Assembly: GCA_036172245.1 (NCBI GenBank)
Contig: JAYWIR010000046.1
Coordinates: 1,116,001 to 1,180,000 of the forward strand
Source: Raillietiella orientalis
Lineage: Eukaryota
Reading direction: 5' to 3'
Length of the DNA: 64,000 nt
Under the pieces are notes generated by a model, which did no database searches, had not been told where the DNA came from, and saw only the letters and a program-made list of their open reading frames with translations. This document shows positions 22,861 through 48,718 of the stretch, piece after piece. Positions within the stretch are counted from its first letter, which is position 1. Every line of letters starts with the position of its first letter. Both the position numbers and the translations under genes were made by a program.

Positions 22861-22906
22861 AATGGGGAAAGATTAGGACAGATCTTTCTTGGGACAGATC
22901 TTTCCT

Positions 22907-27330: not shown

Positions 27331-27419
27331 TTCTGCTTCCTCACGTCGGATGGAGATGCAAAGGCGAAATGCAACAAAAATGAATGTAAACCAAAAGAGG
27401 GAGGGGCGCGTGCATGGAA

Positions 27420-28950
27420 ACACGGGGGAGATTGCTTTGTCGGAGACCTCGGAGCGGTGACCCGCATTAGCTAGGCGACGTTGGCTCAGCTGTCCCGGTC
27501 TTTGCCATCGGGACACCTGCGGCACTTCAGTGACGCCCTCCCTGCTGCCATGGGACCGCGTCCGGGGACGTCTCGAAAGTGCGCAGCTCGGGCAAGCAGA
27601 GTCGCCGTCCCCGAGAGAAGATTTCCGATCTCCAGGTCCAGGGAACTCAAACGAAGCACATCTCAAAGTTGAGGAAGCCGGTCCTCTGCCTACGGGAACC
27701 CCAAGGTCGTCCAGGTGCGACTTCCCACCAGGAAGGGATCGCAGGTGCCCTTCACTTTTAGGGAAACTCGCCGCAGGAGCGATTCTGCAGCTTCGCTCTC
27801 CAGCGCGTGCGTGTCAGGAACGGTCGGCAAAAAGAGTTGTGGACCGGGAGGCGGCGATCGAGCCGCTGCACATCGTTTGATCCGGGCTCCCAGCGCGCCG
27901 TAGTGTCCCTGAGGCACGCTTTCCCGCTGCCTGTGCCGCCCGACCAAACGCCGCCCGCATTCCAGGCGCGGATCCGTTCTCTCGCTGCGTGGAGACAAGT
28001 GGGGTCGTCGTCCCACGGGTGCCAGCCCGGATTGCATGACGGCAGCACCCCTTCACCCTTCGAAAAAATCTACCTTTCCCTTCCGAACTTTTCTCCCCGT
28101 CTTGCATTTTCCCCCAAAGAGGGCAGCATCTCGCGCACCGCAACCCTTGCCTCTTCCCAAACGGCGTCAGAGAGATGCATCCCGCGCCTGTTCGCAATTA
28201 GCACCGTGATCCGCGCAGTTGTGGGAAAGGCTCCTCCACAGGTCGTCGTCGCAGCCTACGGGCAGTGCGTCCCGTGTGTTCACCAAGTGCCAACGTTCGC
28301 CCCCTCTTTTGACAAGGTGCCACCCGACACCTGGATCCCTTATTCGATTCCCCTTTCGTTACAGAGCGGCTCCTGCGCAAGAACATTCCGATTCGTCTCC
28401 CTCGTTCCCCTTCCGGGTAACCCAGCGGAGGGCAGTCGACAACTCGTTGGCGCGATGACGACCCGCGACGTTCGCCTCGCCCCCGCGGATCCATGCAAAG
28501 CTGACCGTCGAGCCCGCTCCTCGGGGCCTTGTCTTCCCGGGGGTGGCCGCTCCACCTGGTCAGGAAGCCGCAGAGGTCCGCTCTCGAGTGGGAGACGCCG
28601 CATCCGGGGAGAAGTCATCGGAGCGTTCGTTTCGTGTTCTTCTACTCTCGGAGAGACGCGCGCTCTGAGATCGGCGCTGAGAAGAGAAGCCCCTCGTCGG
28701 CGCCTCCCCTGAGTCAGAGGGCGACTGCGATCTCCAGAACAACGGCCGTACCCGTCAGAGGAAACGCAGGGATCTGCAGCCACACTCTCCTTGAGTCGAA
28801 TTTCTTGGTGCGCGACGGATTCATCCACCCCTCTTCCCCAGAAACCCCACCTCGGGAGGAGCATGCGCGCGCGGTCCAGCTGATGGAAGATGCGCATTGC
28901 CAGCATCCATAGCCGAGCGGGTGCGACGTGTTGCCCAGAGCAACGGAGAG
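27420..28950 (-). mobile_element. Decayed L1/Tx1-like LINE ORF2, 5' half (EN to RT start)
   Basis: D...HQEIRL (28793-28810, ~D...LQETHL); RRRGASLL (~RGVAIL); WEEARVAVRE (28130-28159, ~WE..K..IR); SREGVTEVP and SEVSDKAI (~R.G.I.LIP, YKI.AKAL). Confidence 0.6.
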
Positions 28951-29349
28951 ACAGCAAAGATGCCGTTCCAGTCGCGAAAAGCAGCGCAGGATGTCTGCTC
29001 GCTGTCAGACGGAGGGGGCGGCCGCATCTTCTCTCCTCGGAAGCCCCTGATCCGGGAGGCTTTCAGCCTGGTCGTCCAGGGGCATCGCACGCATCTGAGA
29101 TGCGGAAGAAGGTACTCATCTCCAGCTTCCGGCAGTTCTGCCTCCTGTCGTTCGGACAGGGGAGATCGAGCGGACCGCACCGCTCCATCAGGAGCGGCGG
29201 CCCCCGAGCAGGGGTCAGGGTCGATAACCGTCACGCCGCCGGTGCTACTCCGCGAGTCCGCCTATCGTCCCGGATCCTGCCGTGGCGCTCCGCAACGGAC
29301 GGGGAAGACGGCCGCAGCCTCGGGACTCTTCTGACGCGGCGCTGCTCAC

Positions 29350-31750: not shown

Positions 31751-32449
31751 AGAGATCGGCAGTCGTCGGGGTCACTGCGAGCCTGTCGCTCGCATCGGGG
31801 AAGCGGGAGAGCGGAAGGGACGATGCCTGATCGTGGAACGAACGACGCCCCTACGCACGCCCCTTGCAGAAAGACCGTCTTCCCTGGAGATGGGAAAAGT
31901 CTACTCCCCGCTGCGACAACCGGGCAAGCACCAAGCAGCCGAATAGCACACGACCCCTCCGGCCTTTTCGAACGAAACGCGGGAGGCAGCGAGTCCGCGG
32001 CAACAGCCTGCCGGTCGCCGCCACCTCCGTGAAAGAAACGACCTTCGTGCGCGCTGCGCGCTCCAGAGAAGCAGCGCGTCACCCGTTCGGGTGACGCACC
32101 TCTTCAGGCGCCCTGCGGGGACGGAGCAAGCGAGGCGCGCCCGCAGAGTGAGAGCTCGCCGAGCACGCGGGAGAGGTCAGCTGCTTTCCTGCTGACTTTT
32201 GCCTGCAGCCATCGGCACCTGCTGAGACGGCGCGTGCTGCATATGACTGCAGGACGAAAGAAACCGTCAGGGGTGAATCGCGCAGTGAGCAGGGAACACC
32301 CACTCCCACATGCTCATTGTACGCACAGGAAGTGGGGATGCAGGCGAGAGCGGAGACGGATGCGGTGGCGCTAAACTCCGGCTCAGAGAAGCACTCGGGT
32401 GGAGGGGAGGGAAGACTGCGGCCGGCTTGCTGTCGCGGAATCCCATCGT

Positions 32450-33570
32450 AAAGCGTCAGAGCCACACGCAGAGTGCCCCTCCGTACGATAGCCGATGTCG
32501 TGAGCGGACTCGTCCGCGTTTCGCCGCACCGACGTCATGGATGAAGCACGTCCAGCGCGAGCGACTTCCTAGCCAGAGTGCAGTTTCAGGAGCCCGTGCG
32601 GAGCGCTGCGAACGCGATCGCCTTCCCGGGTGCGTCGCACTTGCAGCACCCTTTCGACTACGGTGGCATGAGCTCTCCTCGCACGCAGAACATCGTGGGA
32701 CTTCGTCTGAAGACTGCGCAAATCTGGGACAGAGCCCGTGAGGGGCCACGGCAAGTCCTCTCTGCGCTCACGCTTCCCATCGAACCGCAGCATCTGGCAA
32801 CTCCCGGACGACCAGTCTCCCCCCCTGAGTGGCGGGAGAACGCACCCTTCCCTTCGGACGCACGGGACTTTCCGAAACTACCGCAAGCACGCGGAAGAAG
32901 GAATGCGCCGGCAGAAGCAGGCAACAAGCTCATTCAGTTGCGAGGTGCCTTCCCAGCGTCTAGGAAAGCAAGGCGAAGCGCTGCTTGTCCGCAAGTTTGA
33001 GAAGGAGGAAGCGATGAGGCATCACGGATTCGGACCCAGTGCTCCTGCGCAGAGTGCACCCTGGAAATCTGAGAGGGCCACAGATGCGTTCCCTCTCACT
33101 CTCTCGACTCTCCTGAAACGGGCACAGGAAGCGGGATGCCACAGACAGAGGCCCGTAGGGCGGAACCTACGCGGAGGCCATCGCAAAGTCTCAGAACGAG
33201 CTGGTGGTGCTCCCCAGCGAGGAATCGTCTTCGGGAGCGAACCGCGGCGTGAGCAGCAATGTCGGGTGCGGTTCGCGCACGCGTGGAGAGGGCGCGGTGC
33301 GGTGGTGCCGGCAGCCGTACCTGGGCGCAACCGTCGAATATGGCAGCCTTTTCCGCGATTGGAACAGAACGAGGGAGACAAGGATGCGTTCCTTCGTCCC
33401 CTTCCAAGATTTCGTTCAAGGGCATCCGGCGTCCATCGACGTGTGGGCAAAAGGGGGGGTACGGAGTCACATCTGGAAGCTCTGCTGGGCGCTAAGAGAA
33501 CTCGCGTTTCCACGCAGTGCTGCAGCTTCTTCGCACCCCCACCCATCAACGAGTGGCACCTCCAACGATT
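32450..33570 (+). mobile_element. Decayed, internally deleted CR1/L2-like RT fragment
   Basis: LKTAQI (~WKTA.I); HGTFRNYR (~HGFR..R); GAPQRG (~GVPQG); FAHA (~FADD); SFFAPPPINEW (~SFF.R.IN.W, the ORF2 end). Confidence 0.5.
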
Positions 33571-33599
33571 CTCGGTTTCCTGGATGACCCCTATCGGAT

Positions 33600-34300
33600 A
33601 GGGAAAGCAAAACTGCTCTTCGGGCACTTCGTCATGCGTGTCAACTTTGGTGCAGGCCATCTCGCGCAGCGATGAAGAGGCATCTCTTTTTTAGTTCTTC
33701 CTCAAGGGACTCCAGAAAGGGCTGACAGGAATCCCTCAGGTTTCCCTCCATGCTAAAGTCAATGCGCCTCCTGTCGATTTCGCTTCAGTGCCTCCCTGTC
33801 GGCAGCAGTCGCGAACTCACCCACCATCTCGTACGTAGGGGCGCCGCAACCCGACCATCGACGCGACGAACAGCGCATCTGCTCCAACAAGAGATGGTCG
33901 TCTCTGTGCTTCTCCCATCTCGCCAAACTCGGGAGACGCCTGAGCGATCCAACAAGCCTTGCAAACACTGTTGTTGCCTTTGCTGCAAGCTCCACAACAG
34001 AACGCTTTGGAGGACGTCGGCTCCGTGGACGGGACTCTTCCGGATCAGCTGACAACGAAGAGGAGAGTCGCACGCACCGAGATCGCCTGATCGACGCTTC
34101 TTTTTCCCGCTGGTCACTTTGGCATTTCAGGGTTCCCATGGCGCATAGCCGCGGGCAAAGGCGCCGCATGACTTTCCCAACGAATCCGTCGGCGTGCAAA
34201 TGCGAAGGCAGAGCTGCGCCCACGTCGCAGGGATGCTCTCAAGGATCTCCCGAAGAAGCACGTTGTTTTCCTTCCGTTGCCACGAGCGGTGGCACCTGTT
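33600..34300 (-). mobile_element. Possible decayed LINE RT fragment
   Basis: WRDGRSTETTI ~ GFR.GRSTET; GNLRDSCQPFL ~ G.L..WI.SFL. Few motifs. Confidence 0.35.
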
Positions 34301-35299
34301 AGGAAGCGCTCGTGCGCTTTCCGCACACGCGCCAGACCACGCTTTCCGAGCCACTGCTCCCTTCGCTTCGCTCACCTGAGCTTGCTCGCGTCTCTTCGCA
34401 TGCTGCTGTCCTGAGGAACGGTGGCGGCAACGTGCATCGCGGCACGCATGCGCGCGCATTGTCGTCGCGGCCCGTGGACTTCCGAGTCGAACCCCTTCGC
34501 GAGCGCGTTCCCAGAGGAACACAACACATGCACGGTGAATCGGCAGGGGGAGAACGCAACCTGCTGAGCTGAGCAGTACGGGGATGCACTGAATCGTATG
34601 CTGCGGACGTTTCGCGACTGCATTCGCCAGTGGCGGATTGATGACTGCAGAAGACCGACGTGTCGAGGAACGTCGAAGGATCTCACGCACGGAAAGACAT
34701 CGGAGCAGCTTCTCGCCACAACCATCCACATGGAGAGACCCCGTTTCGCGGCAGCGTGACTTCGGATGCGCATCGCAACTTGCGATACACGTCTGCATCT
34801 TTTGCAGCATCACCGCGAATCCTCTGCGGGCTTTGACCACGTTCACGTAAGCGCTCGACCTTTTCTGGATCGCTCCTTTTGGCCGGAGTGACGCACTTCC
34901 TCCACGAAACCTCATCCCAAATCGAGAACTTGTGACGACACGAGAGCATCCAGCGCGCCTCCCCTCCCTCTCACGCACTTTCCTCTCCGCTACGGAAGAC
35001 TGACCAGTTGTCGCGCCCCGGTGGCGATCGACCGGCAGTCTCCATCAGCGACTCGGGCAACGGGCAAGCGCAGAACGACGGCAGGGGCGTGAGGGAGCAC
35101 CTGTTACCGAAGCGCTGGCAGCACTCTGCAAGAGGAGCATGAAGGTTCCCGGCGTCGCCTGCGCAAGCAGACTGCGACGTTCGGCACGGATGGAAGGCCT
35201 CCGCGTGCAGGCCAGCAGGCCAATCGTGCAGAGAGAGGATCAGCGGGTCTGGAGCGGAAAATGGCGATCCGGATGCTTTGCCATTACCGCAATCATTTG

Positions 35300-37130
35300 A
35301 TTAAGAGGGACCATCAACGAGGAAGCGATCAGCTAGGCAGGAAAGTTCGAAGCAGAGCGCAACAACAGCGACCGGAGGGTCCTCGCAGGCTCCGCCGGAT
35401 ACCAAGCATCCGAGCGGAGATTTCGGTGAAAGTGCATCCGACTCGCGTCTCCGGCGCGCACGTGCTCTTTAGCAGCTGCTCGGAACTCAGAAACAGTTCC
35501 GTGGGCGCGCCTAAAGACAGGAACTCAGCCGTGCTCGGAAGACGCGGCGCACCAGGTGCCATTGCGGGAGCGCGCTCGCCGCAAGCGAAGACGTTCGCAC
35601 GGAAAAGGATCCGCGCGGTGGAAGCGGAAGCAGTGCGGATGACGAAGGCGTCTCCGAGCAGAACGCGGTCATGGATACGCAAGCACCGCGCGCTGCTCTG
35701 GGAGCGACGGGCGACTCTGGCAGAAAGAGCGGCCGCCACTACGGGATGCGAGTGGTCCCGCTTACGCTTTCTTGCAAGTGACTCCCCCGCCGACGCGCCT
35801 TGCGTAAAAGCTGCTTTCCCGGTGACCACCTTCACCTTCACCCTGCAGCTGCTCGGCGAGACCACCTATGAATGTTCCACGAGAGATGCAAAGACGCATC
35901 GCTCGCGGACCACGGGCTCTGAACTCCGAAGGGACCCCAACCCCTTCCTCACCTTATTGCCATCCCTCTCGCGTGCTCGCAAAGAGTCACAGCTTCTGGA
36001 AGCGGACGGGGGACGCAGGTGCACTGACGCAAAGATGACTCGCCTCCGTGGTGCAAGTGGGCGCTTCCGAAGCGGAAGAAAATCCGGCCTAGACCGGGTC
36101 AACCCTTCCCACCGAAGAAGGAAGCAGTTCCAGGGAGAAGCGGCGTTCCACCGACAGAAATGGGAGATGTCGCCGTCTCCAGCTTGCACCCTCGTCATGT
36201 GCGTCGATCGGGATGCGTCGATCAGCAACGATCGCAGGAAAGTCGTCGCTCGTTCCCGTGGGAAGTGTGTTCCTAGCGGCAGTCTCTGCCCCACGTTCCG
36301 CGTCCAGAGCCGCCTGGAGCTTCAGCGGAGCGAAGGCAACTCATCCATCCGTCTTTTCAGCTCCGGCTTGGGTCTCCTCCGTCGGGCACCAAACGACCAC
36401 ACGCGAATCGAGAGCAGATGGACGGAGCTTCGGACTTCCCCTTTTGCAAAGAAGAGCAGTCGCCGCGCGAATCTTTCGAGGTCACACGAGAGCTATTGAG
36501 CACCGCACACACCTCCGAGGATATTGGCGATGCCGCGATGCATCTTTCGGAGCCAGCGTGAGTGAGGTCGCAAGCGGATCAGCTTGGTCGCGCCGCCCGC
36601 CCGTTTCCCCAGGCACGCGCCTTTCCCGCAAGCAATGCGATGGGATCGAAGCGAGAAAGAAACGATAGAGTGGGACGCCCTCCTGCGAGCGTTGTCGCAA
36701 GGGGAGGCGGCCGAGAGAGCTGCATGTTGACAAGGCGCTAGAGAAGGGTGCCATGGGAACGGGAGCGAGAAACCGGCAAGTGCACTCCAAACAAAAACAA
36801 AAGAGATGAATGGAAGGATGGGAGGCAAGATCTTCAGTGCGGCGACACAGTCCCTTCTCACGAAAGAACCGCCTTCCGAGGAACAGGCTGCACGCATCAA
36901 CATTCCGTCTCGCTGGCACCATTCGCTTCAGTCCGATCCAACGGACGGGCGGAACAGAACTCCCATCTATCCGCAGCCATCCAAGTTGCGGGCAGCAACA
37001 GGCATCGCGTCCCTCTTCGAAGATGGGTACGCCGCCCGCGCTCTTCCCGTTCGTTCCCGTAGAGTCCCAACCTGTGCTTGCGCCTCCCGCATTTCTTCGT
37101 TGCGGTGGGATTTGCCCTGCCAGCATTCGC
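35300..37130 (+). mobile_element. Decayed CR1-like LINE, RT to 3' end of ORF2
   Basis: PEGPRRL (~GPD.I); GAPKDRNSAV (~G..P.DWK.A.V); VPSGSLCP (~GVPQGS.L.P); SSIRLFSSG (36341-36367, ~SSIRLFADD); SEEQAARINIPS (~YEERL..LNLPS); RISSLRWDLP (~RVV..WN.LP). Confidence 0.7.
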
Positions 37131-37209
37131 GGACGCGTCCCCGTTCCGCACGGCGAGTCATGGACGGATGGAGAAGCATCCGCCGATAGGGGCGGCGGGG
37201 TGCGCTCAT

Positions 37210-40200
37210 GTTGGCGGAAACGAAGCTGCCGACGGGGGTCGAAACGCATCCTCGGAGCCTCCGTTCCGGAAAACGGACTTCCGAAAGTAGGAATCAAAAT
37301 CGCGAACTTCCCTCCCACCTGCGAACATCAAGGGCGCCTCCCCTTCGCACCCACCAGCCGGAGCTTCACCTTCTTTCTCTCTATCCGGCAACACACCATT
37401 GTCCTGACCGATCCGAGCCGAGAAGCACCTGCATCCGGACCAAGACAAGCGGAAAACGGGCAGCTGCAATTCAGCCTGCGCCTTGAGCACGCAGTGTGCG
37501 CAAAGGCGCAGGACGCGTCCACTGCTTCCTGTACGCGGTGCGAGCCAATTCTCCTGGAGACGGAGCTTCGTCATCCTCTCCGACAATTGCGAAAGGACGC
37601 CCTTGCTGAAGCTAATGTCCGGCGTAGGCGTTCAAGGATTTTTTTTTTTGCTCGACAATTCGGAAACCACGGAACCATCGTGGCCGTCGACGTGCTGCCG
37701 AAAGGAAGCTGAAGGCATGCGGAAAGCTTCGTGTAAGCCGCGAGGGAGCGGGGAAAGCGAGCGCTGGGGGATGCTGCGTCGCAACCCGAGGGAACGGGCA
37801 AATGGGTCTCGGACAGGCGGATGAACACGACGTGGAAAAACGAGAAAAGCCGCTGCTGGCCAACAATCGCGAAACAGCCGATCCAATTGCTGCTGACCTT
37901 TTCCGTTCCCTGAAAGAGAAAAAAAGGTCCCTACGATAAACCAGACAGATTTGGGCTGAAATCAAATGACCAGCGGCGAGGGATGAGGAATGACGAGGAG
38001 CTGCCGCATGCGAATGAAGCCTTTGCATCCGTTTCTCTGCAAGATCTCCAAAGCAACGGGCGGCCATTTCTTAATGTGGGAAAGGTGATCGGCGCGTTTC
38101 GCAAGATCGCAGTGCACGCCCGAAACGGGCAACAGGGAACCGGAAGCAACCCATCGACGCTCTCTTCTTCGAAAAGGACCACCTCCAGTTCTCAACGAGA
38201 TCGCATCGCCCCACCGTGCATGTGGGGCGATGCGATCTCGTTGAGTAACCTCGGAGCGCCGTTCCCCCCTGCGGGCCGCTCGCACGAGTGCTGCTTTCGA
38301 CAGCAGATGGCCCCCCACCCTTGAGGAAATCAGGAAGCGGCATGCGTTGCTAACGGAACACGCGTGTCCCTTGTATCCGGCGTTGATCCGTCCGGACGTT
38401 CACTCAGCCCGTCTCGCCTGCTTGCGGGATGGACGGAGGGCATACGAGCAGGATCACGAGATCCTTCCTTCTGCAGCGACTGCGCTCCCCTAGACCCGTC
38501 CGGACACAGAACGGACTCGCGCGCTTCGCTCACACGGAGGAAGAGGGCGGACGCAACGGTTCTCACCGCGTGCGGCCTCTTCTGTTCGCGCAACCAGCGC
38601 TCTTCCACCCGCTCCGGAAGGCAACCTGCTCGCGTTAACCGCAGCGCCCGCCGCACCAACCGTTCTCCTCCGACTCTCTTCGAGAGGGGACACTTCTTCC
38701 AAGGATAGTTGGCAAGGGAGGAGGAAGCGACGTGCTTTCCACTGCCGCCTCTGCCCGCTCCCCTCGCACGTTTCCTCCCAGCATCGCGCGCCTCTCGCGT
38801 AGGCCACAGCCAGACGGATGGTGCCCGTTCGGCAAGTTCCGTTGCTCTCGCAGGTAGAAGGAAGAAGCGGCCACGGTCGGCGCGCGGGCAAGCCTGCGTG
38901 TGCATCCGCAACGTGAGACGGCGCTGCCAAAGAAAACAAAGAGCTCAGATGCCCGCCGTGCTGGCCTCGTGCTTCAGCGCAGGCGAGGCCATACGAATCT
39001 CCCGCGGAATGTCCGTGCATTCTCCTTGGATGCGTCACGGGCTGCGCGCAGCGTGGAAACCTCCGCTACGGATCGGGACGGATGCGATGGTGAGATGGGG
39101 CGGCCAGTCTCCTCGTGGGCACTCTTGTTCGCTGCCTCGGGTGGGAGTCGCACGCATCCCCGGAGGCGGGGCACGAGCGCTTCCTGTCCTCGCCGAGAGC
39201 GAGAAAGCAACGGGCGCACAGTGGGCAGCCGGTAGCCCATCCTCGAGTACCAGCTGCCCGTTTCTCCTGCAAAATAGGTATCCGCGAAGGGAATGCCCGT
39301 TTCCCGGATATCTCGAGGGCGACGAGCGTTGCGAGGAAGATACTCTGCATGCCACTTCTTTCCAGCGGTCCGAGCGAATCGGCCGATGCGTCGATAATCG
39401 GCAGGCGCGACCGTGCGAGCGCGCAGCGCATGCGCGCGGCTTGCAAGGAGCCAGGACCGAAACGGACGCGCAAGAGTCTGCGGGAGGGATTCCCCCGTGC
39501 TTCCACGCTCGCTGCATACCTGTAGGCACGCACTCATCCCGAGCCCATCTCGCTGTAAGGGCCTCCTCCACACGCTGCCTCCCAGGCAACCGCGGAGGAT
39601 TTCAATGCGGCCTACGATTTTGCGCAGAAACCCACCTAGGGAGGCGGACTCTCAACGTGCAAGGCGAGCACAGGCCTCGCAAAGCACAAGGTTCCTCCGT
39701 GCGTAGGTGGCAGGATGACCCTCCATCGCACTCAGCAGCTCCCGGGAGATGAACTTTTCGTGGACCCCACTGCATGGTCCGACGCAAGCTCAGGAGCAGT
39801 CGGGAGCAGAGGAGAGTCCCCGACTGGAGGGACCGGTCCTCTACCAACGTTCGCCCGTGTCCCTCGAAACCCTCCTTCCTTGATTCCGCGCAGCGCGCTT
39901 GCGGTCCCAGGCTGCCGACATCCTTGCACGACCGGGACCACCATCGCCTGCAGCCGAGCGGAATGCTCCAGGCGGAGGCAGTCGCATCGACTCTTTGCAG
40001 CCGCGAGGGCTCTCCTGCTTCGCGCACACCCGACCTGTTCACCCCGCTCCGCAACGCGCGACCTGCTGCTTGCATTCCGCTGCCACGCGGCACCGCACGG
40101 ACGCCAGCGTACCCACGAATGGCGTGCGCCTATTCAAAGGCGGAGGCACGCCACACCGTGGTCCACGCTCCTCAACCGCCATCGCGCAGACTTCCTCCGC

Positions 40201-40600
40201 CTCGGCAGCAGCCTCTCGCGTAGGCGCGTACCCATTGACCGGGCGTGGAGACGCTCCGGGCACTTCCGTCCTGCAATCCCTCTTCCGGAATCCTCTGGCC
40301 TTTGCGTGCCGAGATGGCTGAGGCGGCATCACTGGATCTTCCGCCTGCATCCCAAACTTCTCTCCATGCAGAGATGGCCGCAGCACCAGGACGAGGACGT
40401 CTTCCGCGCAAGCGGAAGCGGGAAGACGTTGGCAGCGTCAAGAAAGGCAGCGGACGAGACGGCCGGCAGCCTCATGCAGACCGCGGCGGCAGTCCGAACG
40501 CCGCGAACGACGTTCCTCTTGCGGCAGCGGCGGGAAGAGGAAGAGGGTGCCGTGGGAGCTTTCGCATCCAGGTTGCCGTTGCGCATGAAGCCCCAGCAAC
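37210..40600 (+). mobile_element. Near full-length decayed CR1/L2-like LINE ORF2
   Basis: ANIKG and TIVLTD (EN N-terminus); PIDALFF (~ID.IF); LASCFS (~LN.YF.S); ARGLQGAR (~HGF..GR); GGTGPL; QAADI at the YADD position; HPKLLSMQRWPQH (~RP.LEY...W.PH). May be more than one nested fragment. Confidence 0.5.
38191..38245. repeat. Perfect inverted repeat (24-bp arms, 7-nt loop)
   Basis: ctcaacgagatcgcatcgccccac (38191-38214) cgtgcat gtggggcgatgcgatctcgttgag (38222-38245), an exact reverse complement. Confidence 0.95.
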
Positions 40601-40949
40601 CACCCTCGTGCGCCCGCAGAGCGATCTGGCGCCGCACGCCGGATTCCCGAGCTCGCAGTCAGTCCACATTGCGGTCTTCCTCCCATTCTTGTGCGGGATC
40701 CGCGTGCGCGTCCTCTTCTCCAGGGGAGTCCCAATCGCGCTTCCTCGAGCACCATCTCCGTGTCTTTCGCTTTGCTCGCTCGCAGGTGCCACGCTTTCCA
40801 AGCGCGTCGCCAGGCACCCTGAGAAGGCAGCGGGGACTGGGCGTAGGTTTTTCGCTGCGGCCGTGCAGGCATTCCTCCCATCCGGGCATGGGGACACAGC
40901 CAAGCGCATCCAGGATTCGGAAGATTCCGCGAAGCGAGGGTCCCGGCGC

Positions 40950-41650
40950 TGTGAGGGAGCAGCTCCACGTCGCACCCCGCAGCCCAGAGATGCGCGCCAC
41001 GGACGCACCGGGCCGACTCGGTCTTGTCCTTCTGGAGCATCGTCCCCTCATCAGCTTCTGGTTCTTCTCCCAGCGCCCACCCTCACCCTCTTCCGAGAGA
41101 ATTTCTTCCTGCAGACCGAGAAAAGTGGAGAGGGGGTGGAGGGTGGGGGGTGGAGCCCGGAAATAATGCCAATTGGGGTGGGGGGTGGAGCCCGTTTCGT
41201 CGTCCGCGCAGCGAGGATCGGCGCATGTCCGCGCCCCTCCGCGCGAGGCAGATGCGGATGGGAGATCAAGGAGCAGAGATTGAATTTCGCTCCTCACCCG
41301 CTGCAGTTGGAAGCGAGCAAACAAAGGATTTCGGGGGCGGAATTCCCGCCTCGCAGCACCCAGCATCGCTACCTTATTGCACAAAGTGCATCCCTGACTT
41401 CCCGGAAGGAAAAAAAAGTCGCCCTTTGAGGATTTGCACGATTCATTTCCCCCTTTTTCGCAACCCACTTCGCCGGTTTTCTTGCTGCATATCAGCAGAC
41501 CGGGAGGCGCTGTTAATCCCGGAGGTATCCGGGCAGGCTGCGATCCCGTGCAGTGGGCTCCAGCTTTGGACCGTGTTTTCATGCGTCTCCCGCGCCGTCC
41601 GCTCAGGGGTTCACGCTCGCCGCCGGTCCTGAAGCCACCGCGCCCGTAGC
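40950..41650 (+). mobile_element. Decayed CR1/L2-like LINE fragment (RT C-terminal part)
   Basis: CPSGAS (~VPQGS); LPADREK (~FADDTK); W....RLNFAP (~W...L.FN); TKDFGG (~KDLGV). Confidence 0.45.
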
Positions 41651-41719
41651 AGGGTAGAGTCCCCCTTCCGCAGTGGAGTGGGTCCCTTGGAAAGGGCACA
41701 ACCCCGGTTGCTGGCATAC

Positions 41720-44700
41720 CGACCGTCGGGATGGACTGCACCTGCACCTGCCACAAGAGAGACAAATTGAGAAGCAGCGCCTCGCCCTCCCCCCTTCCCC
41801 GCCCTTCCCTTGCAGCTCCCCGGGTACGCTTTCTCCCGCATTCCTCGCATGATGCAGCTGACACTTTCGCGACGCGTTCCTGGCATTTCAGCAGCCGCCG
41901 GCGAGCGGGAGCGGCGCGCAGCATCCTGAGTGCGAGCCACGCGAGGCGCTTCCGCTGGCGAAGGGGGAGCGCACCTCGCCCGGGAGCGGGGAGGAGGCGA
42001 CCTCCGGCAAACGGACAGGGACGCAAACGCACGGAGGAGGAGCGGGAGAGGAAGGCGGCGCGCGCTCGCATCTCGGCGCTGGACCGATTCGCCAGGGAAA
42101 ACAGGCGCGTCGCCGGCGCAGCGCCCCTTCTCGCGTGCATCTCGGCGATCGTGCGGAGCGAGGCTCACAGCGACGGCGAGCAGCGAGAAGGGATGGCCGC
42201 AAGGACGAGGAGGCTCCGACCTCCGCCTGCAAACCCGCGCGGTACTAGGGAAACGGCGAGGCGCGCTGCGAAGACGCCGCGCCCTTCCAGCGCGCGGCAG
42301 TCCTTCTGCCCGGACGCGCGTGCGACCCGCGTCATCTGAGTCGTTCCCCGACGGTGGGTTCGTCCTTTCTGGAAGGTCACCTCGTCTCCGTACCCTCCGG
42401 AAGAGATCGCCACGTCCAAGCGGGCAGCCGCGCGTCGCGACGGCAACGCATGTCTCCCGCGCCTTGCGACCACTCCCTGCCTCTCGCCGCACGCGAGCGA
42501 CTCCGTCGACGGAAGCGCCGCACACAGTGCCCCACGGACGAGGCGACAGCGCCTCGAGTGAGACCCAGGAACGACCCGCGGGAAGAAGAAGCGGGGGTTC
42601 GCACGCTGGCGCCGCCGCTTGCGACTCGCCTGAGAGCGGGGATGCGTGCGCGCCCTCCCGGCGCGACGTGCTTCCGGGTCCCCTGCTCGTCCCTTGCGGG
42701 AGCGGGAACGAAGGAGCGCCCTCGCCGCCGCGGGCGCTTCCCTTCGCAGAGGGGGACTGCTGCCGCGGTTGCGGTTTTCGTCTTGTACGTCCGGCGCCAC
42801 CCCAAATTTCTCCTCCTTCCTGCGGCGGTGCAAGTCTCGGAAAAGTCCCAATCCCCACGGGAGCAGCCTTGGGGAACATGGATCCTTCTTATCCCCACGG
42901 CGCTGTCCTCAGAGGAGCCCTCCAGAGAGGTCTCCTGATCGCCCAGCCGTTCTTCCCGGGCGTTCCTTCGCGCGACCGCCCGCGAGCAGGGAAGACACCC
43001 AGCCACGCAAGGGGGACAGTTGGACCCACAACCAATCGAGCGGCCACGCAAGGTCCACTCCTCGGAGGGACTTCCCGCGATGATGGGTCGGGTGCTCCCC
43101 GTCCGGAGCAGCAGCGCATCCTGGGCGGACGCGGCGCTTCGCTCCCTCCCCCAGAGCTGCTGCTCGACAGCTCCCGGCGGAGAGAGCGACGCCCATCGGG
43201 GAATTCCAATTCGCGGGCACCCGCTTGCTCATCGCGTTTCGCTCGCCGCATTCCCCCTTTCGCTGCGTTCCCTGCGATCCTGGCGCTCTTCGCCGACGCA
43301 GCTCCCGCCCGCGCGGCGGTCGCCTCTCCCCCCGCGCCAATTCCTGCTGCGGATGCGCCCCTCGAGCATCCCGGAGGCGGGAAAAAGTCGTGTTCGCTTG
43401 GCGTGCGTGATCTCCAGGCTGACGCAGAGAGGCAAGCGAGGGGTGCTGTGATCGCGGCGGCGCTGACAGGCGCTCCTGGTGCGCGGCAACTCCAGCGCGC
43501 CTCCCCGTCCCTACGCAAATCTGGCGCTCTTTCATGTCTGGTGACTTGGCGGCGCAGCGAGGGCTCCTGGCGCACCAGAAGTGTCATCGCTCACCGCCGT
43601 GACGCCGATGGTGCTCGTGGGTTTCGGTCCCGCTTCTTGTGCAGCCACGCGTTCCTGACTTGGAACCGCAGGCTGGTCCGGGAAACTCCGGTGAAGACTC
43701 CGACGTGCTAATGGACCGTAGAGCGATGAGTGTATGAGGGGGTCCCAGTGCGGTCCGAAGCGCGCCGCGGCGACTGTTTTCATCTGGACAGGGGCCGCTC
43801 CTCGGAAAGAAAGGAGGCACGTCCGAAAAAGTGGGAGACCGGAGCGACGTCGACCTGTCCTCTCGAATTCCCCGCAAGGCGCTATCGGGTTTCTCTAGGG
43901 AGCGCCGACATCGATGCAGGTGGCGCTGAAAGTGGAGCCTGCAATCAGTCACCCAGAGGGGCGGAGCCGTTCACGCCCAGGGAGCGCTCGCCGGGGACGG
44001 CGAGTCCCGTGCGAGCAGGCAGAGCTGCATCCGACCTCCCCCTGGAGGAATCGAGGCTCCGTAGGACCGCGCGACACCTTCGGCCGCCCGCCACGCCCTT
44101 CCTGCCGCTTCCTTTTCTTCGGCCTCCATTCGTCTCCGCTTCCCGAGAGCCGCCCCGCCCCGTCCCGGACTCCAAGGGCATGGGGGAGGCTCGATAGGGC
44201 TGTGGCTTTCCAATAAGTCCCCCCTTTGACAAGCATGCGAGATGCGCAGGGGGCGCGCGGCCCGAAACCGGCTTTCCCAGTTTTCGGTCTCGCAGGCGTG
44301 GCCCCGATGACCGTGCGAAGCCCCTCAGCGTCATCTGGTGGGCCAACTGGGCACCCGCAGCGCGTCGATCCTTTAGCCGGCACCCGCGGCGCCCGGTGTC
44401 GCGCGCGCGCTGCGGTCGCGGCGCCCACCCACGCAAGTAGTCACCCGGATCGCTTTGCTCGGGTGCCTCCGGTAAGCGAAGGACCCTGTGAGCGCATCCC
44501 GTCTACGAGGCACCACCGGGTGGCCCTCTCCGTCCTCTGCTCCGGCTGGGAAGAGGGAACCAACCGCACGTCCCCGCTCATCCTAAAGATGGACGTGTGT
44601 CCAGGAACCAGGAGCCTCCCGAGCCACCATTCTCGTCGCCTTATCGAGCCCCCCTCGGACTTGCGCCCAGCCCGACCGGTGGTGCCGGCTCTCTGGATGA

Positions 44701-44900
44701 AAGTGGGCTGCAGCGTCGAAGGGAGTGTCCCGGCGTCCTTTCTGGCACGGTTTGTTTTCGATGCCGTTCCGCAGTGCTTTTCGCGGTTGCCGCCCGTTGT
44801 CGGCTACCGCGGCGCTTGGGTGGAGGCCAAGAGACGAGGCGGTGCAGGCTGATGGCAATGGGCTGACCTTCCTCCTCCGACCTTTCTCTTGACCTCCGAT
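41720..44900 (+). mobile_element. Decayed L1/Tx1-like LINE ORF2 (EN end, RT, C-terminal Cys/His region)
   Basis: SWHFSS (~WKFN.S); KSPNPHG (42841-42861, ~KSPGPDG); RKVHSSEGLPAMMGRVLP (~YKI.SK.L..RL..VLP); HRVSLAAF (~DRVSW.F); RVRLACVISRL (43389-43421, ~GVRQGCPLSPL); KSGALSCL (~FG..SGL); EPPSDL...PVVPALWMKV (about 44645-44705, ~ET..HL..CP.V..LW..V). Confidence 0.7.
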
Positions 44901-45749
44901 TCCACCGCGACCTGGTGCAGAGTGCGTTTGCGGGCTCGTCGTTGCGGATTTTCCCTGGGGAGCTGGATTGCTCGGCGACCCAGGGTCATCCCTGTGACGA
45001 GCGTGCCGGGAGTGCCCGCGGCCCGGACGCGAGTCTGAGGCCCCAGGTGCATGCGGTCCGTGCGTGACCGCTGCTGTCGGTGGGTGCCGGGCGCCCACCT
45101 TTCTCCTGGATAATCAGCGTCCTCGCCCGGTGGCGCCGGAACGTTTTTTCTTTTTATTCACGCGAAAGGGAAGCAGACTGGGAAATGGGTGGGAGGAAGT
45201 GCGCGTCCCACCCAGTCCGAACATCCACTGGGGGGCGTCGATGAGGTCCCACGACATCACGCAGAGGTCGAGGGACTGGAAGAAAAAAGAAAACATGAAA
45301 GGGAAATTTTTCGGAAAAACTGAACCGGGGGAGGAGGGGGGGAGAAAGGTCGCATCCCGCTGTCTGCGATCCTGTGCACCCTTTGCGGTATGCCGGCGAG
45401 CTCCTCTCGGTAGCCGCTCAGAAAAGCGGATGGAGAAGAGGATGGCTCCTCTATCGTGTCGTCGACTCTCGGAGCCGTTTTTGGACAGACTGCGCGCAGA
45501 CAGCACGGCGCCGCAAAGGCGGCAGCTGCGGACTTGCGGGGACTCCGCGCGCGCAAAGAGGTTCCTCGCGCAGCTTTCCGGGTCGTTCGCGGGGGAAGGG
45601 GGCGACTCAGGGGAACGTTCCCGTTGTGCCTGCAGGGGAGCACGTGCCACTAGCAGGTCGGGGAAAGCGTCCTTCTCTCCGCAGCTGGAGCAGGCGGGAC
45701 CGGTGCTCCCTCTCGTCCGGTGTTGGCCGGCCGCGCTGCACGCGAGTTC

Positions 45750-47130
45750 AAGACGTCAGCAGCGCCGGCCGCTGCCATCGGAGGGAGAGGCGAGAGCTGC
45801 TCGACGTCGCCGATGGGGTGCCGAAGCGTTGATCCCAGAGAAGAAGTCCTCTGGGAAGGGTCAAGGTTGTTGCGGCGTGAGGTCGCCGACTCGCAGTCCG
45901 GCTACTTGGGGGTTTCCTGCTACCCGATATCTCGCAGGGAAACTCCCGCTTAGCCGGTAGGAGGTGCCGTGAATCTCGAAGGCGGAGGGCGCGTCTACGT
46001 CTCTGGTGGCTGACGGACTTCACAGCCCACCGCCTCCGCGGTTCTTCCGACATTCCGGATGTGTTACCGGCAGTTCGTGGCTTCTCTTGCGGGACTCGTC
46101 CTCCCGGCCCACGTTGGAACGGTCTCCTGGCTCCAGGCATTTGTTTTTGCGGGGCAACAGAAGATCCATGAATGTGCTTTTTGCAGGGTGGCCACTTGCC
46201 GGAGAGGGAGCCGTAGACGTTCAGGAGGTTGCGTTAGAAAGCTGGGTTGCTGGTTTTCCGCAGGCGGCCGCGGCCCGGGCGATCAGACGTGTCGGGACGC
46301 ACCCGGTGGAGTGGATGGTCTAGTACTAGGCTGGCAGGGTCAGTCTCTTGAAATCAAGCTGAAGGTCTGTTCTCTCCAGCGTGGAAACCTCCGTCCCGCC
46401 GCGGAGGCTGGCGCTGCGGAGGCTGGGAGCCGGCTGGTGGCCGAGGAAAAGCTCTCGCTCTGTGCCATTCTTTTCCGCGAGTCGAAAAGAGGGATGCGCC
46501 GAAAAGAACGCGATGGCATCCCAGAAGTGCTGCCTACGATCTGCTTCCGTGGTCGCGCGTGGACATGCATTTCCTTCTCGGAACTTTGCTGGCTGCCACA
46601 CTCTTCCAAGATTCCGTGTATCATCCGCCACGTACTGTGAAGTGGAGGAGGGCAGTGGTCTGATGTAGTTATGAGATGTCTCCACGAAAGCATTGGGGCC
46701 CGTATGCTGAAGAATGGTTTTCATAATCTGACAGCTGCTTTGTCTGAGGTAATTCGTTGCTGCTACCCAGTGCGTGTTTTGAATATCAGCGTTGTCGGTT
46801 GATGTGGTTTCGCTGTCGTCTGGATATGCACTCTGAACGGTGATGGCGCATCATTATTGCTCGTGAATGAGTTGAGAATTTATTTCTGAAACATTCTGAA
46901 TACCAGATATTCCATTTTTCCATATTTGATTTTTTGAAAATTTGATTATTGCTGTTGTCGACGCAACCGATTGTTCTCTTGCATTTCCCGCTCTTCTTTC
47001 CTTTAAGGGACCTACAATCTTTTCTGGAACCACTGCTCAACGACCTAGTTGCTCTTCGCACTAACTTTATGTGCAGACGAACTTTATGTTGCACATAGGA
47101 AGGGAACAGTACATAAGTTGAGTACATCTT
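45750..47130 (-). mobile_element. Decayed CR1-like LINE (RT to ORF2 end) straddling the right edge of the GC domain
   Basis: SLSSG; ECFRNKFST (~GFR...ST); NYLRQ; TGPNAF...QYVADDTRNL (ADD at 46628-46620, the clearest catalytic motif in the window); ERTDL (~EKDL); LLNVYGSL; GMSEEPRRR...HQRRRR (~L.YEERL...RR.R). Confidence 0.8.
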
Positions 47131-48349
47131 TTTCGTTTTGAGAAAGGCAGATTATAAACGAATGTTTCGAGGATGCAATTTGTTCTGATTCTCTTCGTGA
47201 CAACAAATAACGAGAGTCTCCGTCGAGTCGTTTCTTTTTTGTTTTTTTCTACATGAATTGAGAGCTGCCACTCTTAAACCCTATAAAATTAGTTTTTTCT
47301 TCCGAATGATAAAAATGAGCGTTTGAACGGATGCGCTTCTAATCACAATTAAAAAACCAGGGTGAGATTTGCGGGGTAATTTGTGGTGATCTTCATTAAT
47401 CAATATTTGTTAGCAAAATGGTTCCTTTTTGTGATTTTTCAGGTTTCGAACGGATCCTTCGAGGGTTTCCTTTAGGATGCTGTTCGATCTGCGTTAGGTG
47501 TACTTTGGACAGCTGTTCCGAACTGTATCGCTTGCGATGCGAGCTATGTGGTCCACTTTGTTTTAAGACAAAAAAATCTTCGTTTTCTCACAAAAAGCTG
47601 GTTTCTTGAAAAATAAACCAGCTCTCAAGATTTTGAACTTTTCTTATTTTTCTTGAATTTGGAGGGTTAAATTCTGGAAGATGCTTTCGTACTTTGATGA
47701 CCGGTTGGATTGCAGCTTGATCCTCCAAAGCAAGTTATTTTCCAAAACTGAGAAGCTATTTCAGTCATTAAACATCAGGATCAAGCTTCTGAGTGATATA
47801 AGGGAGAATCAATTATCTCGAGTGAAGGATCAGGAATTGAGGATCGGAGGAAAAATTTTCTCATTCTGTTGTTCCACTGTGATTATTTGATTTGTTGACC
47901 ATTTCAGGTTCAGCTTAACTTCACTAATAATGATTTTTATGATTTAAGAGGAACCATATCTCCAACATTCTTAAAGACAATCTGCACTATCCGTTATTTC
48001 TTTTCGGTGCTTAGGTATATGAGAATATTTTTGCTCTAGCTCAGTTTTCCGAACACATGGGAAATCCAATTTCTTGAAGAACGGTGGTCAAAGCAAAAGT
48101 TTACAACTTTGGTAAGTCCATGTCAAAGTGGGATTCAGTTCCAAGAACGAGAAGACAAATCATGACAAGGGGACAGTTTTCATAGTGCTCAAGGTGTAAA
48201 GGAGAGTGCAGGTTTTTCAAGAAAGATGACTTGAGACGTTTTCTCATTTTGTTTATTCATTTTGTTCCCTTTGTTTGTGGAGCTGTGCAGTAATACGTCT
48301 TCTTAACCGGTTCAAGTTTTCAATAAACCTAGGAAGGCTTCTCAAGAGA

Positions 48350-48718
48350 TTTCATAGAACACTGCACATTCCAAATGATTCGGAAATTCAAATGGGAGCT
48401 TTTTGATCACCCACCTTACAGTCCTGCCTAGTGACTACCACGTCTTCCTGCACCTTAAGAAGTGGCTCAACGATTCGAGGAAAGTGAGTGGAAAACTGCA
48501 GTGCTGCTGAACTGGCTGAACTCCCAGGTGTCGCAATTTTATGCAGAGTGCTTTAAAAAACTTATTCCACGGTATCAAGGGCGTTTGGAAAAAAATGGTG
48601 ACTACGTAGAAAAAAGACACGAGTGTGTATGTGTTTAGAACCACTGATACATTTTTGTTTCTCTTATTTGTTCTTGCTTTGTATCGGATCTACCCTTACT
48701 TTTGAGAGGAGCCTCGTA
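48350..48718 (+). mobile_element. 5'-truncated Tc1/mariner (mariner-type) transposon: transposase C-terminus, 3' terminal inverted repeat and TA
   Basis: From 48375: MIRKFKWELFDHPPYSP / PSDYHVFLHLKKWL / QRFE...FYAECFKKLIPRYQGRLEKNGDYVEK (to about 48614). These are the mariner YSPDLAPSDY and GDY hallmarks, broken by small deletions. Ends in ccttacttttgagaggagcctcg-TA (to 48718), resembling a mariner terminal repeat plus TA target site. Confidence 0.92.

What the first reader, a model, noticed from the sequence alone, without database searches (positions are those of the whole stretch)
45750..47130. Right boundary of the GC domain bisects a single CR1-like ORF2
Seen: one minus-strand motif series runs in the correct order: SLSSG (~47030), ECFRNKFST (~46880), YVADDT (46634-46617), ERTDL (~46370), GMSEEPRRR (~46045). 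Along it GC goes from 18/60 (line 46861) to 46/60 (line 46381) within about 500 bp. Inference: the compositional edge is not an insertion junction or assembly break. The GC shift was imposed on pre-existing DNA and has a sharp positional limit.
Basis: partly seen in the sequence, partly recalled or inferred. Interest (0 to 1): 0.8.

Follow-up and report, generated by a model that had tools for sequence, protein, structure and literature searches.

The report
GC block edge without a CR1
The sharp drop in GC content near 46.66 kb is real, but the DNA across it shows no trace of a CR1-type reverse transcriptase, so it is the step-like edge of a 36 kb non-coding GC-rich block of unsettled origin.

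Summary
The five peptide strings and the GC counts (18/60, 46/60) are in the sequence as described. However, the strings lie in two different minus-strand frames with stops between them. No search found reverse transcriptase, endonuclease or any LINE protein: Pfam on ORFs and read-through frames, PDB phmmer on three frames, full HMMER against 1.84 billion proteins, and word searches. "YVADD" does not fit the YxDD box.

The GC change is one step at 46,661 (0.64 to 0.39), not a ramp. It mirrors a step at 10,861. Between them lie 35.8 kb of unique, non-coding DNA at 61% GC, with CpG o/e 1.06 and TpA o/e 0.29. The flanks are 38% GC and CpG-depleted, and the right flank holds a mariner transposase relic.

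One thing does cross the right edge: a 3.6 kb strand-asymmetry zone (44,678-48,321, G+T-rich on +) with equal strength on both sides.

My best reading (about 0.45) is a junction between unrelated DNAs, with a possible 9-bp target duplication. In-situ GC enrichment with a sharp limit (about 0.3) is not excluded. The CR1 reading is about 0.03.

The parts
46562..46702 (.). Right edge of the GC block. The best single step lies between 46660 and 46661 (GC 0.64 to 0.39).
   Evidence: Markov likelihood change point at 46660, 2-nat interval 46562-46702. One-step GC fit at 46661, and a second step is not needed.
10861..46660 (.). GC-rich block of 35.8 kb: 61% GC, CpG o/e 1.06, TpA o/e about 0.29, unique sequence, non-coding.
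   Evidence: for composition. No tandem or dispersed repeats. 0 of 206 ORFs of at least 110 aa in the whole window hit Pfam. No 3-base periodicity. GC3-GC2 over 265 block ORFs has mean 0.009 and sd 0.063, equal to the binomial expectation.
10853..10869 (.). Left edge of the GC block. The step lies at about 10857-10861 (GC 0.41 to 0.60).
46326..46850 (-). 174-aa open frame that straddles the step and holds YVADDT and ERTDL. No relatives, read as a chance ORF.
   Evidence: In one search the single hit out of 1,835,955,588 proteins was a 32-residue stretch matched six times in a six-fold tandem-repeat protein.
46786..47151 (-). 121-aa open frame in the AT-rich side, in a different frame, holding SLSSG and ECFRNKFST. 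No relatives found.
45748..46233 (-). 161-aa open frame in the GC side holding GMSEEPRRR. Its composition is Arg/Pro/Ser-rich, as expected of random GC-rich DNA.
   Evidence: (only PEHE at 14.1 bits against a cut-off of 34).
44678..48321 (+). Strand-asymmetry zone that crosses the right edge. The + strand is rich in G and T ((G+T-A-C)/length is +0.11 in the block part and +0.13 in the flank part). Cause unknown.
   Evidence: The last 1 kb of the block is +0.11, against 33 other block windows with mean -0.037, sd 0.021 and max 0.002. The first 1 kb of the flank is +0.148, against 25 flank windows with mean 0.006, sd 0.030 and max 0.074. The largest 4.2 kb excursion elsewhere is 131, against 495 here.
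10462..11310 (+). Weaker asymmetry zone of opposite sign across the left edge (-0.13 outside, -0.21 inside).
   Evidence: (likelihood gains of only 3.6 and 6.3 nats).
10825..10833 (+). Left copy of the 9-bp direct repeat GAGATGTCT, just outside the left step. Candidate target-site duplication.
   Evidence: The other copy is at 46673-46681. About 0.04 such pairs are expected within 50 bp of both steps (my estimate, made after seeing the pair).
46673..46681 (+). Right copy of the 9-bp direct repeat, 12 bp outside the right step.
48336..48635 (+). Relic of the C-terminal end of a mariner-family transposase, with stops and at least one frameshift. It is cut off on its 5' side close to where the asymmetry zone ends.
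   Evidence: SETMAR transposase domain at E 1.6e-4 and 3.1e-3, and four Mos1 entries at E 0.25-0.73, aligned to the last ~90 residues. Upstream + frames 47301-48403 give nothing. Pfam missed it.
16185..16252 (+). Fragment of the 5' half of a U4 snRNA inside the block. The K-turn is mutated and the 3' half is absent. It is flanked by the direct repeat CCCCAG. Read as a truncated retropseudogene.
   Evidence: (39.1 bits, below the gathering score of 46; E 2.4e-5 for the whole window) and for the flanking repeat.

Best explanation
Shown. The stretch 45750-47130 carries no recognisable CR1/L2 ORF2. The motif series is a set of strings read from three unrelated open frames. Such frames are common in stop-poor GC-rich DNA. 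What is really there is the right-hand edge of a 35.8 kb block of unique, non-coding, CpG-undepleted, TpA-poor DNA at 61% GC. The edge is a single step at 46,661, and a matching step lies at 10,861.

Inferred. The edge is most likely a physical junction between two DNAs of different history. On one side is a long-resident, probably unmethylated, GC-rich stretch of eukaryotic nuclear DNA. It was already GC-rich when a U4 pseudogene landed in it. On the other side is AT-rich, partly CpG-depleted DNA that carries transposon debris. The junction could have arisen in two ways. The block could have been inserted or transposed into AT-rich DNA; the 9-bp repeat GAGATGTCT at both edges would then be the target duplication. 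Alternatively, AT-rich mobile DNA could have accreted against it.

The different CpG levels are read as different methylation states (inference). The strand asymmetry across the right edge would then be a later overprint, for example from transcription running out of the block (inference, untested).

My confidence that there is no demonstrable CR1 ORF2 is about 0.9. My confidence in the junction reading is about 0.45, which is the figure entered.
For: No LINE protein:
- 0 of 206 ORFs of at least 110 aa hit Pfam.
- 2 of 150 and 2 of 141 ORFs of 45-109 aa in the flanks and boundary gave only sub-threshold, non-transposon hits.
- 3 read-through minus frames of 45501-47400 and 6 more covering 44200-45600 and 47300-49000 showed no RVT or endonuclease family at E up to 10.
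- PDB phmmer gave nothing relevant on the 174-aa ORF and on the 3 frames.
- Full HMMER against 1.84e9 representatives gave one artefactual hit.
- Word searches near and longer found none.

Step edges.

Different signature beyond GC. The dinucleotide distance delta* is 0.100-0.123 between block and flanks. It is 0.021-0.037 within the block and 0.028-0.035 within the flanks. TpA o/e is 0.28-0.31 in the block against 0.59-0.64 in the flanks. A context-free AT-to-GC shift would leave TpA o/e unchanged (my argument).

No similarity between block and flanks by blastn or tblastx.

Candidate 9-bp duplication within about 12-28 bp of both steps.

The U4 fragment sits between identical GC-rich CCCCAG repeats.

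The flank holds a mariner relic.

One low-coverage public run holds 100%-identical pieces of both block (39714-39880, 40891-41041, 45079-45229) and flank at similar depth, 2-7. This argues against a contaminant of very different abundance.
Against: - The 3.6 kb strand-asymmetry zone crosses the right edge without any change of level. Each half is the extreme of its own compartment. A weaker mirror-image zone crosses the left edge. A plain junction does not predict either.
- In a purine/pyrimidine alphabet, which transitions leave unchanged, k-mer spectra do not separate block from flanks. In the keto/amino alphabet they do. This is a weak test with no outside control.
- The 9-bp repeat is only marginally unlikely, and no terminal inverted repeats exist.
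- No contig or read was seen to span either edge, and no relative or empty site could be examined.
- Pfam demonstrably missed a degraded mariner piece, so a very old, frameshifted LINE relic cannot be strictly excluded.
- The 352 ORFs of 45-109 aa inside the block were not scanned.
Confidence: 0.45

Rival explanations
1. In-situ compositional domain. The 35.8 kb were once ordinary AT-rich host DNA. A position-limited process with edges sharper than about 100 bp drove or kept them at 61% GC. The process could be GC-biased gene conversion in a bounded recombination-hot domain, or a domain-wide difference in repair or methylation.
For: - The strand-asymmetry zone 44678-48321 runs through the right edge at constant strength (+0.11 and +0.13). 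A weaker one crosses the left edge.
- A and T fractions in the GC half of the zone (0.168, 0.207) keep the T>A bias of the AT half (0.267, 0.344).
- Purine/pyrimidine k-mer spectra of block and flanks overlap.
- In the U4 fragment, the differences from upper-case Rfam consensus positions are 5 AT-to-GC, 1 GC-to-AT and 1 A-to-U (counted by hand; the species' own U4 is unknown).
- Block and flank have similar depth in run X1.
Against: - TpA o/e of 0.29 against 0.6 is not produced by a context-free AT-to-GC shift (and my argument).
- Keeping G+T excess while converting T-rich DNA to GC-rich DNA would need T-to-G and A-to-C transversions rather than the usual transitions (arithmetic).
- The flanking repeat of the U4 fragment is GC-rich and identical on both sides, so the block was GC-rich at that insertion.
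- No ancestral state is available.
- I know of no invertebrate-type genome with such blocks. That is recall, and two literature searches (listings only) showed none.
Confidence: 0.3
2. A single old CR1/L2-type LINE lies on the minus strand across the edge. Its GC-side half has been compositionally converted.
For: - The minus strand of 44678-48321 is rich in A and C. From recall, this is usual for LINE sense strands. The zone's length (3.6 kb) is in the range of such elements.
- YVADD at 46634-46620 loosely resembles an RT box.
- Pfam can miss degraded transposon relics.
Against: - No RT, endonuclease or ORF1 signal by any of the searches. This includes the AT-rich half, where no conversion should have blurred it.
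- The strings lie in two frames with 6-10 stops per frame.
- YVADD does not fit YxDD.
- ECFRNKFST lies only 87 codons upstream of YVADDT. From recall, the N-terminal RT motifs of LINEs lie much further from the YxDD box.
- No reference CR1 sequence could be aligned.
Confidence: 0.03
3. Assembly artefact. DNA of a GC-rich co-sequenced organism or a mis-joined contig was placed between two AT-rich host pieces.
For: - There are step-like edges at both ends and a foreign-looking dinucleotide signature.
- No spanning contig was seen. This is not evidence in itself.
Against: - It would need two independent mis-joins that enclose the block in host DNA.
- Run X1 holds identical pieces of block and flank at similar low depth.
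- The asymmetry zone runs across the edge.
- The block is non-coding, and neither of the 2 block ORFs tested had a relative in the prokaryote genome or metagenome collections. A gene-dense microbial contaminant is therefore unlikely.
Confidence: 0.08

Closest known systems
CR1/L2-clade LINE ORF2 (apurinic-type endonuclease plus reverse transcriptase)
   Same: The A+C-rich strand and the 3.6 kb extent of the asymmetry zone resemble a LINE. One string (YVADD) is reminiscent of the catalytic box.
   Different: No RVT or endonuclease domain was found by Pfam, PDB or full-library HMMER. There is no single frame. The box has the wrong spacing. No related copies were found.
Pseudoautosomal-boundary type GC jump (the mouse Fxy/Mid1 case; recalled, not read here)
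   Same: A sharp positional limit of GC enrichment within otherwise continuous DNA, ascribed to GC-biased gene conversion.
   Different: In that case a gene with known orthologues gives the ancestral state. Here nothing alignable crosses the edge, the DNA is non-coding, and recombination is unknown.
AT-rich isochores made by repeat-induced point mutation in fungi
   Same: Blocks of about 35-40% GC alternate with GC-rich blocks, with abrupt edges on a scale of tens of kb.
   Different: The RIP indices are not met in the AT-rich parts. TpA/ApT is 0.66-0.68 and (CpA+TpG)/(ApC+GpT) is 1.35-1.44. The recalled thresholds are at least 0.89 and at most 1.03. The GC block has no genes.
CpG island or unmethylated domain
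   Same: GC above 55% and CpG o/e about 1, against CpG-depleted surroundings (0.72-0.84).
   Different: It is 35.8 kb long with no detectable gene. TpA depletion to 0.29 is not part of the definition.
Large insertion of foreign or translocated DNA with a target-site duplication
   Same: Step edges at both ends, its own oligonucleotide signature, and a 9-bp direct repeat just outside both steps.
   Different: No terminal inverted repeats, no transposase or integrase, no donor identified, and the repeat is statistically marginal.

Membership tests
CR1/L2 LINE ORF2 | Reverse transcriptase domain (Pfam RVT_1 type) detectable in translation | tested here: not met
   No RVT family at E up to 10 in the 7 ORFs, in the 3 read-through frames of 45501-47400, or in the 6 further minus frames. 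PDB phmmer of the same 3 frames gave only unrelated hits at E 1.5 and 2.6. Caveat: Pfam missed a degraded mariner piece that PDB phmmer found.
CR1/L2 LINE ORF2 | Apurinic-type endonuclease domain upstream of the RT | tested here: not met
   No Exo_endo_phos-type family in minus frames of 45501-49000. The 121-aa AT-side ORF has no relatives.
CR1/L2 LINE ORF2 | Catalytic box Y/F-x-D-D | tested here: not met
   The string is Y-V-A-D-D, with two residues between Y and DD. Genuine [YF]xDD strings occur 7 times by chance in the window's six frames.
CR1/L2 LINE ORF2 | Motifs colinear in one reading frame, or with few frameshifts | tested here: not met
   Two frames are used, and there are 6, 7 and 10 stops in the three frames between 47060 and 46020.
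CR1/L2 LINE ORF2 | Alignment to adjacent coordinates of a family consensus; other copies in the genome | not testable with these tools
   No genome is held for the window and no repeat library is on hand. There are no copies within the window.
RIP-type AT isochore | TpA/ApT high and (CpA+TpG)/(ApC+GpT) low in the AT-rich part | tested here: not met
   0.66-0.68 and 1.35-1.44 in the three flank segments. The thresholds are recalled.
gBGC-driven GC domain | Excess of AT-to-GC over GC-to-AT substitutions against a known ancestor, confined to the domain | tested here: inconclusive
   The only fossil with an external reference is the U4 fragment. It shows 5 AT-to-GC against 1 GC-to-AT at upper-case consensus positions. 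The sample is tiny and the species' own U4 is unknown.
gBGC-driven GC domain | Elevated recombination in the domain | not testable with these tools
   No population or genetic-map data.
CpG island / unmethylated domain | GC above about 50-55% and CpG o/e above about 0.6 | tested here: met
   GC is 0.614 and CpG o/e is 1.06 over 11001-46500.
CpG island / unmethylated domain | Absence of cytosine methylation; promoter association | not testable with these tools
   No methylation or transcript data. No RNA run was listed.
Transposon-type insertion | Target-site duplication directly flanking the insert | tested here: inconclusive
   GAGATGTCT lies at 10825-10833 and 46673-46681. About 2.4 nine-base matches are expected in the 800 x 800 bp compared, and about 0.04 this close to both steps.
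Transposon-type insertion | Terminal inverted or long terminal repeats, and element-encoded enzymes | tested here: not met
   There is no similarity between the two ends in either orientation. None of the block ORFs of at least 110 aa scanned hit a Pfam domain.

The most novel reading that the evidence does not exclude
The 35.8 kb block is host DNA that a strictly position-limited process has driven to 61% GC, CpG o/e 1 and TpA o/e 0.3. Its edges are sharper than about 100 bp on both sides. A 3.6 kb strand-asymmetric (probably transcribed) unit runs straight through the right edge. This would be a PAR-boundary-like compositional cliff in non-coding DNA of an AT-rich, invertebrate-type genome.
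Probability: 0.27. Interest if true: 0.7.

Novelty: new member of a known kind. Interest (0 to 1): 0.33.

Why it matters
As written, the finding would have been a rare natural experiment: one dated element half inside and half outside a GC-enriching domain. That would give direct counts of AT-to-GC change and prove in-situ conversion. This basis does not hold.

What remains is still worth a look at whole-genome scale. It is a large, gene-free, repeat-free GC-rich block with step edges inside AT-rich DNA. It has an unusually strong TpA deficit, and a strand asymmetry ignores the edge.
- If it is an insertion, it is an odd one: 36 kb of non-coding eukaryotic DNA with no mobility genes.
- If it arose in situ, it would show that base composition can be reset over tens of kb with near base-pair limits.

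Either answer needs only a sister genome or spanning long reads.

Tried and rejected
- Whole-genome search of the window's own assembly: none is held.
- Earlier findings of the scan: three look-ups returned nothing.
- Public runs: one DNA run (X1) was listed, with 6% of sampled words and no RNA holder. When laid on 38000-57000, 24 contigs matched: 12 at 99% or more, 6 at 95-99%, 2 at 90-95% and 4 below. 14 of them lay on it only partly. Only 8 of 33 pieces were printed. No listed piece covers 45608-46875, so the run says nothing about the edge itself.
It was replaced by ORF lists and short read-through stretches.
- Rfam at gathering threshold found 0. Tandem Repeats Finder found 0.
- Telomere-type repeats: none.
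- Terminal inverted repeats or any similarity between the two edge zones: none.
- Relatives of two long block ORFs were sought in 185,579 prokaryote genomes and in JGI metagenomes. 122 and 379 pattern matches were found and none was confirmed. This covers only two stretches of the block.
- Coding potential of the block is rejected.
- A CpG-rich 'shore' at 46701-47600 (40 CpG against 24.6 expected at flank level, P 0.003) is not unique. Windows near 7.3-8.4 kb reach the same o/e.
- A mirror symmetry of about 1.9 kb at both block ends was considered. It was dropped after change-point fitting gave a left zone of only 0.85 kb.
- The UstYa hit in the left flank (20.1 bits, cut-off 25) is taken as chance.
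- Two literature searches were seen as listings and abstract starts only. No paper was opened, and none pointed to a matching case.
Full report
SETTING. The window has three parts:
- 1 to about 10.86 kb, 38-40% GC;
- about 10.86-46.66 kb, 61% GC;
- 46.66-64 kb, 38% GC.
CpG o/e is 1.06 in the middle block and 0.84 and 0.73 in the flanks. No whole genome is held for the window. Earlier notes of the scan returned nothing.

THE OBSERVATION. The two quoted line counts, 18/60 at 46861 and 46/60 at 46381, are exact. The strings are not in one frame. SLSSG, ECFRNKFST and GMSEEPRRR are in one frame, and YVADDT and ERTDL are in another. Between 47060 and 46020 the three minus frames carry 6, 7 and 10 stops. 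The strings fall in three separate open frames of 121, 174 and 161 aa. Long open frames are commonplace here: 99 of at least 150 aa are in the window, almost all in the GC block. The reason is that stop codons are scarce at 61% GC with TpA at 0.29 of expectation.

IS IT A CR1-LIKE ORF2? I tested this in several independent ways.
- Pfam on the seven ORFs around the edge at E up to 10 gave only PEHE (14.1 bits, cut-off 34) and a zinc ribbon (11 bits).
- Pfam on the three minus frames of 45501-47400, read through stops, gave only PEHE at 11.5 bits.
- Pfam on six more read-through minus frames covering 44200-45600 and 47300-49000 gave only SspN at 10.5 bits.
- phmmer against all PDB chains gave unrelated hits at E 0.5, 1.5 and 2.6, or none. 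From recall, PDB includes LINE and R2 reverse transcriptases. The queries were the 174-aa ORF and the three read-through frames.
- Full HMMER of the 174-aa ORF against 1,835,955,588 representatives returned one protein at E 6e-6. That protein is a six-fold tandem repeat, and the match is one 32-residue stretch counted six times. The score is therefore inflated and the hit is meaningless.
- The AT-side 121-aa ORF is where a relic should be least disturbed. It shares no word set with proteins of similar length. Of 15 longer candidates, none scored.

Across the window, 0 of 206 ORFs of at least 110 aa hit Pfam. Of the 291 flank and boundary ORFs of 45-109 aa, 4 gave sub-threshold, non-transposon hits. 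The 352 such ORFs inside the block were not scanned. YVADD has two residues between Y and DD and so is not a YxDD box. Proper [YF]xDD strings occur seven times by chance in the window.

One caveat is real. Pfam failed to report a degraded mariner piece that PDB phmmer found. A very old, heavily frameshifted LINE relic therefore cannot be strictly excluded. No CR1 reference sequence was available to align.

THE EDGE ITSELF. A second-order Markov model trained on block against flanks puts the right change point at 46660, with a 2-nat interval of 46562-46702. It puts the left one at 10857, with an interval of 10853-10869. A direct fit of G+C gives one step at 46661 (0.64 to 0.39). A second step does not produce an intermediate plateau at the edge. 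It gains 5.1 nats, against a null maximum of 5.6 in 30 simulations. The left step is at 10861. The 'ramp over 500 bp' is therefore a step seen through 60-base lines.

WHAT THE BLOCK IS.
- It is unique sequence. There are no tandem repeats, no internal or block-to-flank similarity by blastn and none of substance by tblastx.
- It is non-coding. There is no 3-base periodicity anywhere in the window (maximum 3.07, mean 1.0). GC1, GC2 and GC3 are flat in the long ORFs. GC3-GC2 over 265 block ORFs has mean 0.009 and sd 0.063, exactly the binomial expectation.
- Its dinucleotide signature is homogeneous within (delta* 0.021-0.037) and far from the flanks (0.100-0.123). TpA drives much of this: 0.28-0.31 against 0.59-0.64, and 0.12-0.49 in every 1 kb of the block. 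CpG and CpA/TpG also contribute.
- RIP indices are not met in the flanks.
- Two long block ORFs have no relatives in the prokaryote genome collection or in JGI metagenomes.
- The block contains the 5' half of a U4 snRNA at 16185-16252 (39.1 bits, below the gathering score of 46; E 2.4e-5). The K-turn is mutated and the 3' half is missing. Identical CCCCAG repeats flank it. I read this as a truncated retropseudogene. It marks the block as eukaryotic nuclear DNA that was already GC-rich when the fragment landed.
- The right flank holds the C-terminal roughly 90 residues of a mariner-family transposase at 48336-48635 on the + strand (SETMAR E 1.6e-4). Nothing recognisable lies upstream.
- One low-coverage public run holds 100%-identical 151-167-base contigs of both block and flank at depths of 2-7. 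No listed piece lies over the edge.

SOMETHING DOES CROSS THE EDGE. The excess of G+T over A+C on the + strand is highest in the whole window across the right edge. The last 1 kb of the block has +0.11. The other 33 block kilobases have mean -0.037, sd 0.021 and maximum 0.002. The first 1 kb of the flank has +0.148. The 25 other flank kilobases have mean 0.006, sd 0.030 and maximum 0.074. Change-point fits bound the zone at 44678 (44626-44740) and 48321 (47700-49050). The levels are +0.11 and +0.13, with no change at 46661. The cumulative excursion is 495, against at most 131 anywhere outside the two edge zones. A weaker zone of opposite sign crosses the left edge (10462-11310; gains of only 3.6 and 6.3 nats). 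The two zones share no sequence in either orientation. No telomere-type repeats are present.

The flank part of the right zone is not uniform, with +0.21, +0.03, +0.17 and +0.10 in four sub-stretches. Its right end roughly coincides with the truncated start of the mariner relic.

The GC half keeps both T>A and G>C. Deriving it from the AT half by the usual transitions would predict a G-C difference near zero. Only T-to-G and A-to-C changes reproduce the observed values (arithmetic). An ongoing strand-biased process such as transcription therefore fits better than an inherited skew. This is inference.

WEIGHING THE READINGS. These points favour a junction between unrelated DNAs:
- the two clean steps;
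- the separate signature;
- the lack of any shared sequence;
- the GC-rich duplication around the U4 fragment;
- the 9-bp direct repeat GAGATGTCT at 10825-10833 and 46673-46681, each just outside its step. I expect about 0.04 such pairs this close, an estimate made after seeing the pair.

These points favour in-situ enrichment:
- the asymmetry zone that ignores the edge;
- the overlap of purine/pyrimidine k-mer spectra, while keto/amino spectra separate (weak, no outside control);
- the 5:1 AT-to-GC excess at conserved U4 positions (tiny sample).

An assembly join would need two mis-joins. It fits poorly with the shared depth in run X1 and with the asymmetry zone. I put the junction reading at about 0.45, in-situ conversion at about 0.3, an assembly artefact at about 0.08 and the literal CR1 reading at about 0.03. 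The rest is unassigned.

COMPARISON WITH KNOWN CASES. The closest models are:
- a LINE relic (membership features tested and not met);
- the pseudoautosomal-boundary GC jump (recalled; not testable here);
- fungal RIP isochores (indices not met);
- a CpG island (composition met, size and gene association not);
- a large insertion with a target duplication (duplication inconclusive, terminal repeats and enzymes absent).
Two literature searches, seen as listings and abstract starts only, showed no matching report. No paper was opened.

VERDICT. The interpretation's basis fails. The edge is a true, very sharp compositional step of unresolved origin. Interest is modest unless the in-situ reading is confirmed.

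Noticed in passing
window 16185-16252 (+): The 5' half of a U4 snRNA (39.1 bits, below the gathering score of 46) with a mutated K-turn and no 3' half. It is flanked by identical CCCCAG repeats and looks like a truncated retropseudogene inside the GC block.
   Followed up: partly
window 48336-48635 (+): C-terminal relic of a mariner-family transposase (SETMAR E 1.6e-4, Mos1 weaker), with two in-frame stops and a frameshift. The element is cut off on its 5' side. Pfam did not report it.
   Followed up: yes
window 2049-3045: A small, moderately GC-rich patch (54% GC, CpG o/e 0.78, TpA o/e 0.40) in the left flank. It scores block-like but at a third of the block's per-base likelihood. It has no Pfam hit.
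   Followed up: partly
window 11265-11431: A 167-bp flank-like, AT-rich and CA/TG-rich patch just inside the left edge of the block. The first 1.75 kb of the block is also less GC-rich (0.57) than the rest (0.67 beyond 12611).
   Followed up: no
window 39600-43700: A cluster of overlapping open frames of 425-593 aa on both strands where GC reaches 0.66-0.70. They have flat GC1/2/3 and no Pfam hit. They are explained by the scarcity of TA-containing stops rather than by genes.
   Followed up: yes
window 46701-47600: CpG is not depleted (o/e 1.15, 40 observed against 24.6 expected at flank level) in the first 900 bp of AT-rich DNA beyond the GC step, then drops to 0.50. Similar values occur at 7.3-8.4 kb, so this may be chance.
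   Followed up: partly
window 37639 and 14948: Runs of 11 T and 9 A inside the 61% GC block, far above random expectation for that composition. They could be remains of poly(A) tails or slippage tracts.
   Followed up: no
P0001 (library protein, not in the window): A 3972-aa predicted protein made of six near-identical units of about 650 aa, each with an aspartic-protease-like DTGAG motif. It looks like a concatenated retroelement or pararetrovirus reading frame. It inflates HMMER scores by repeat counting.
   Followed up: no
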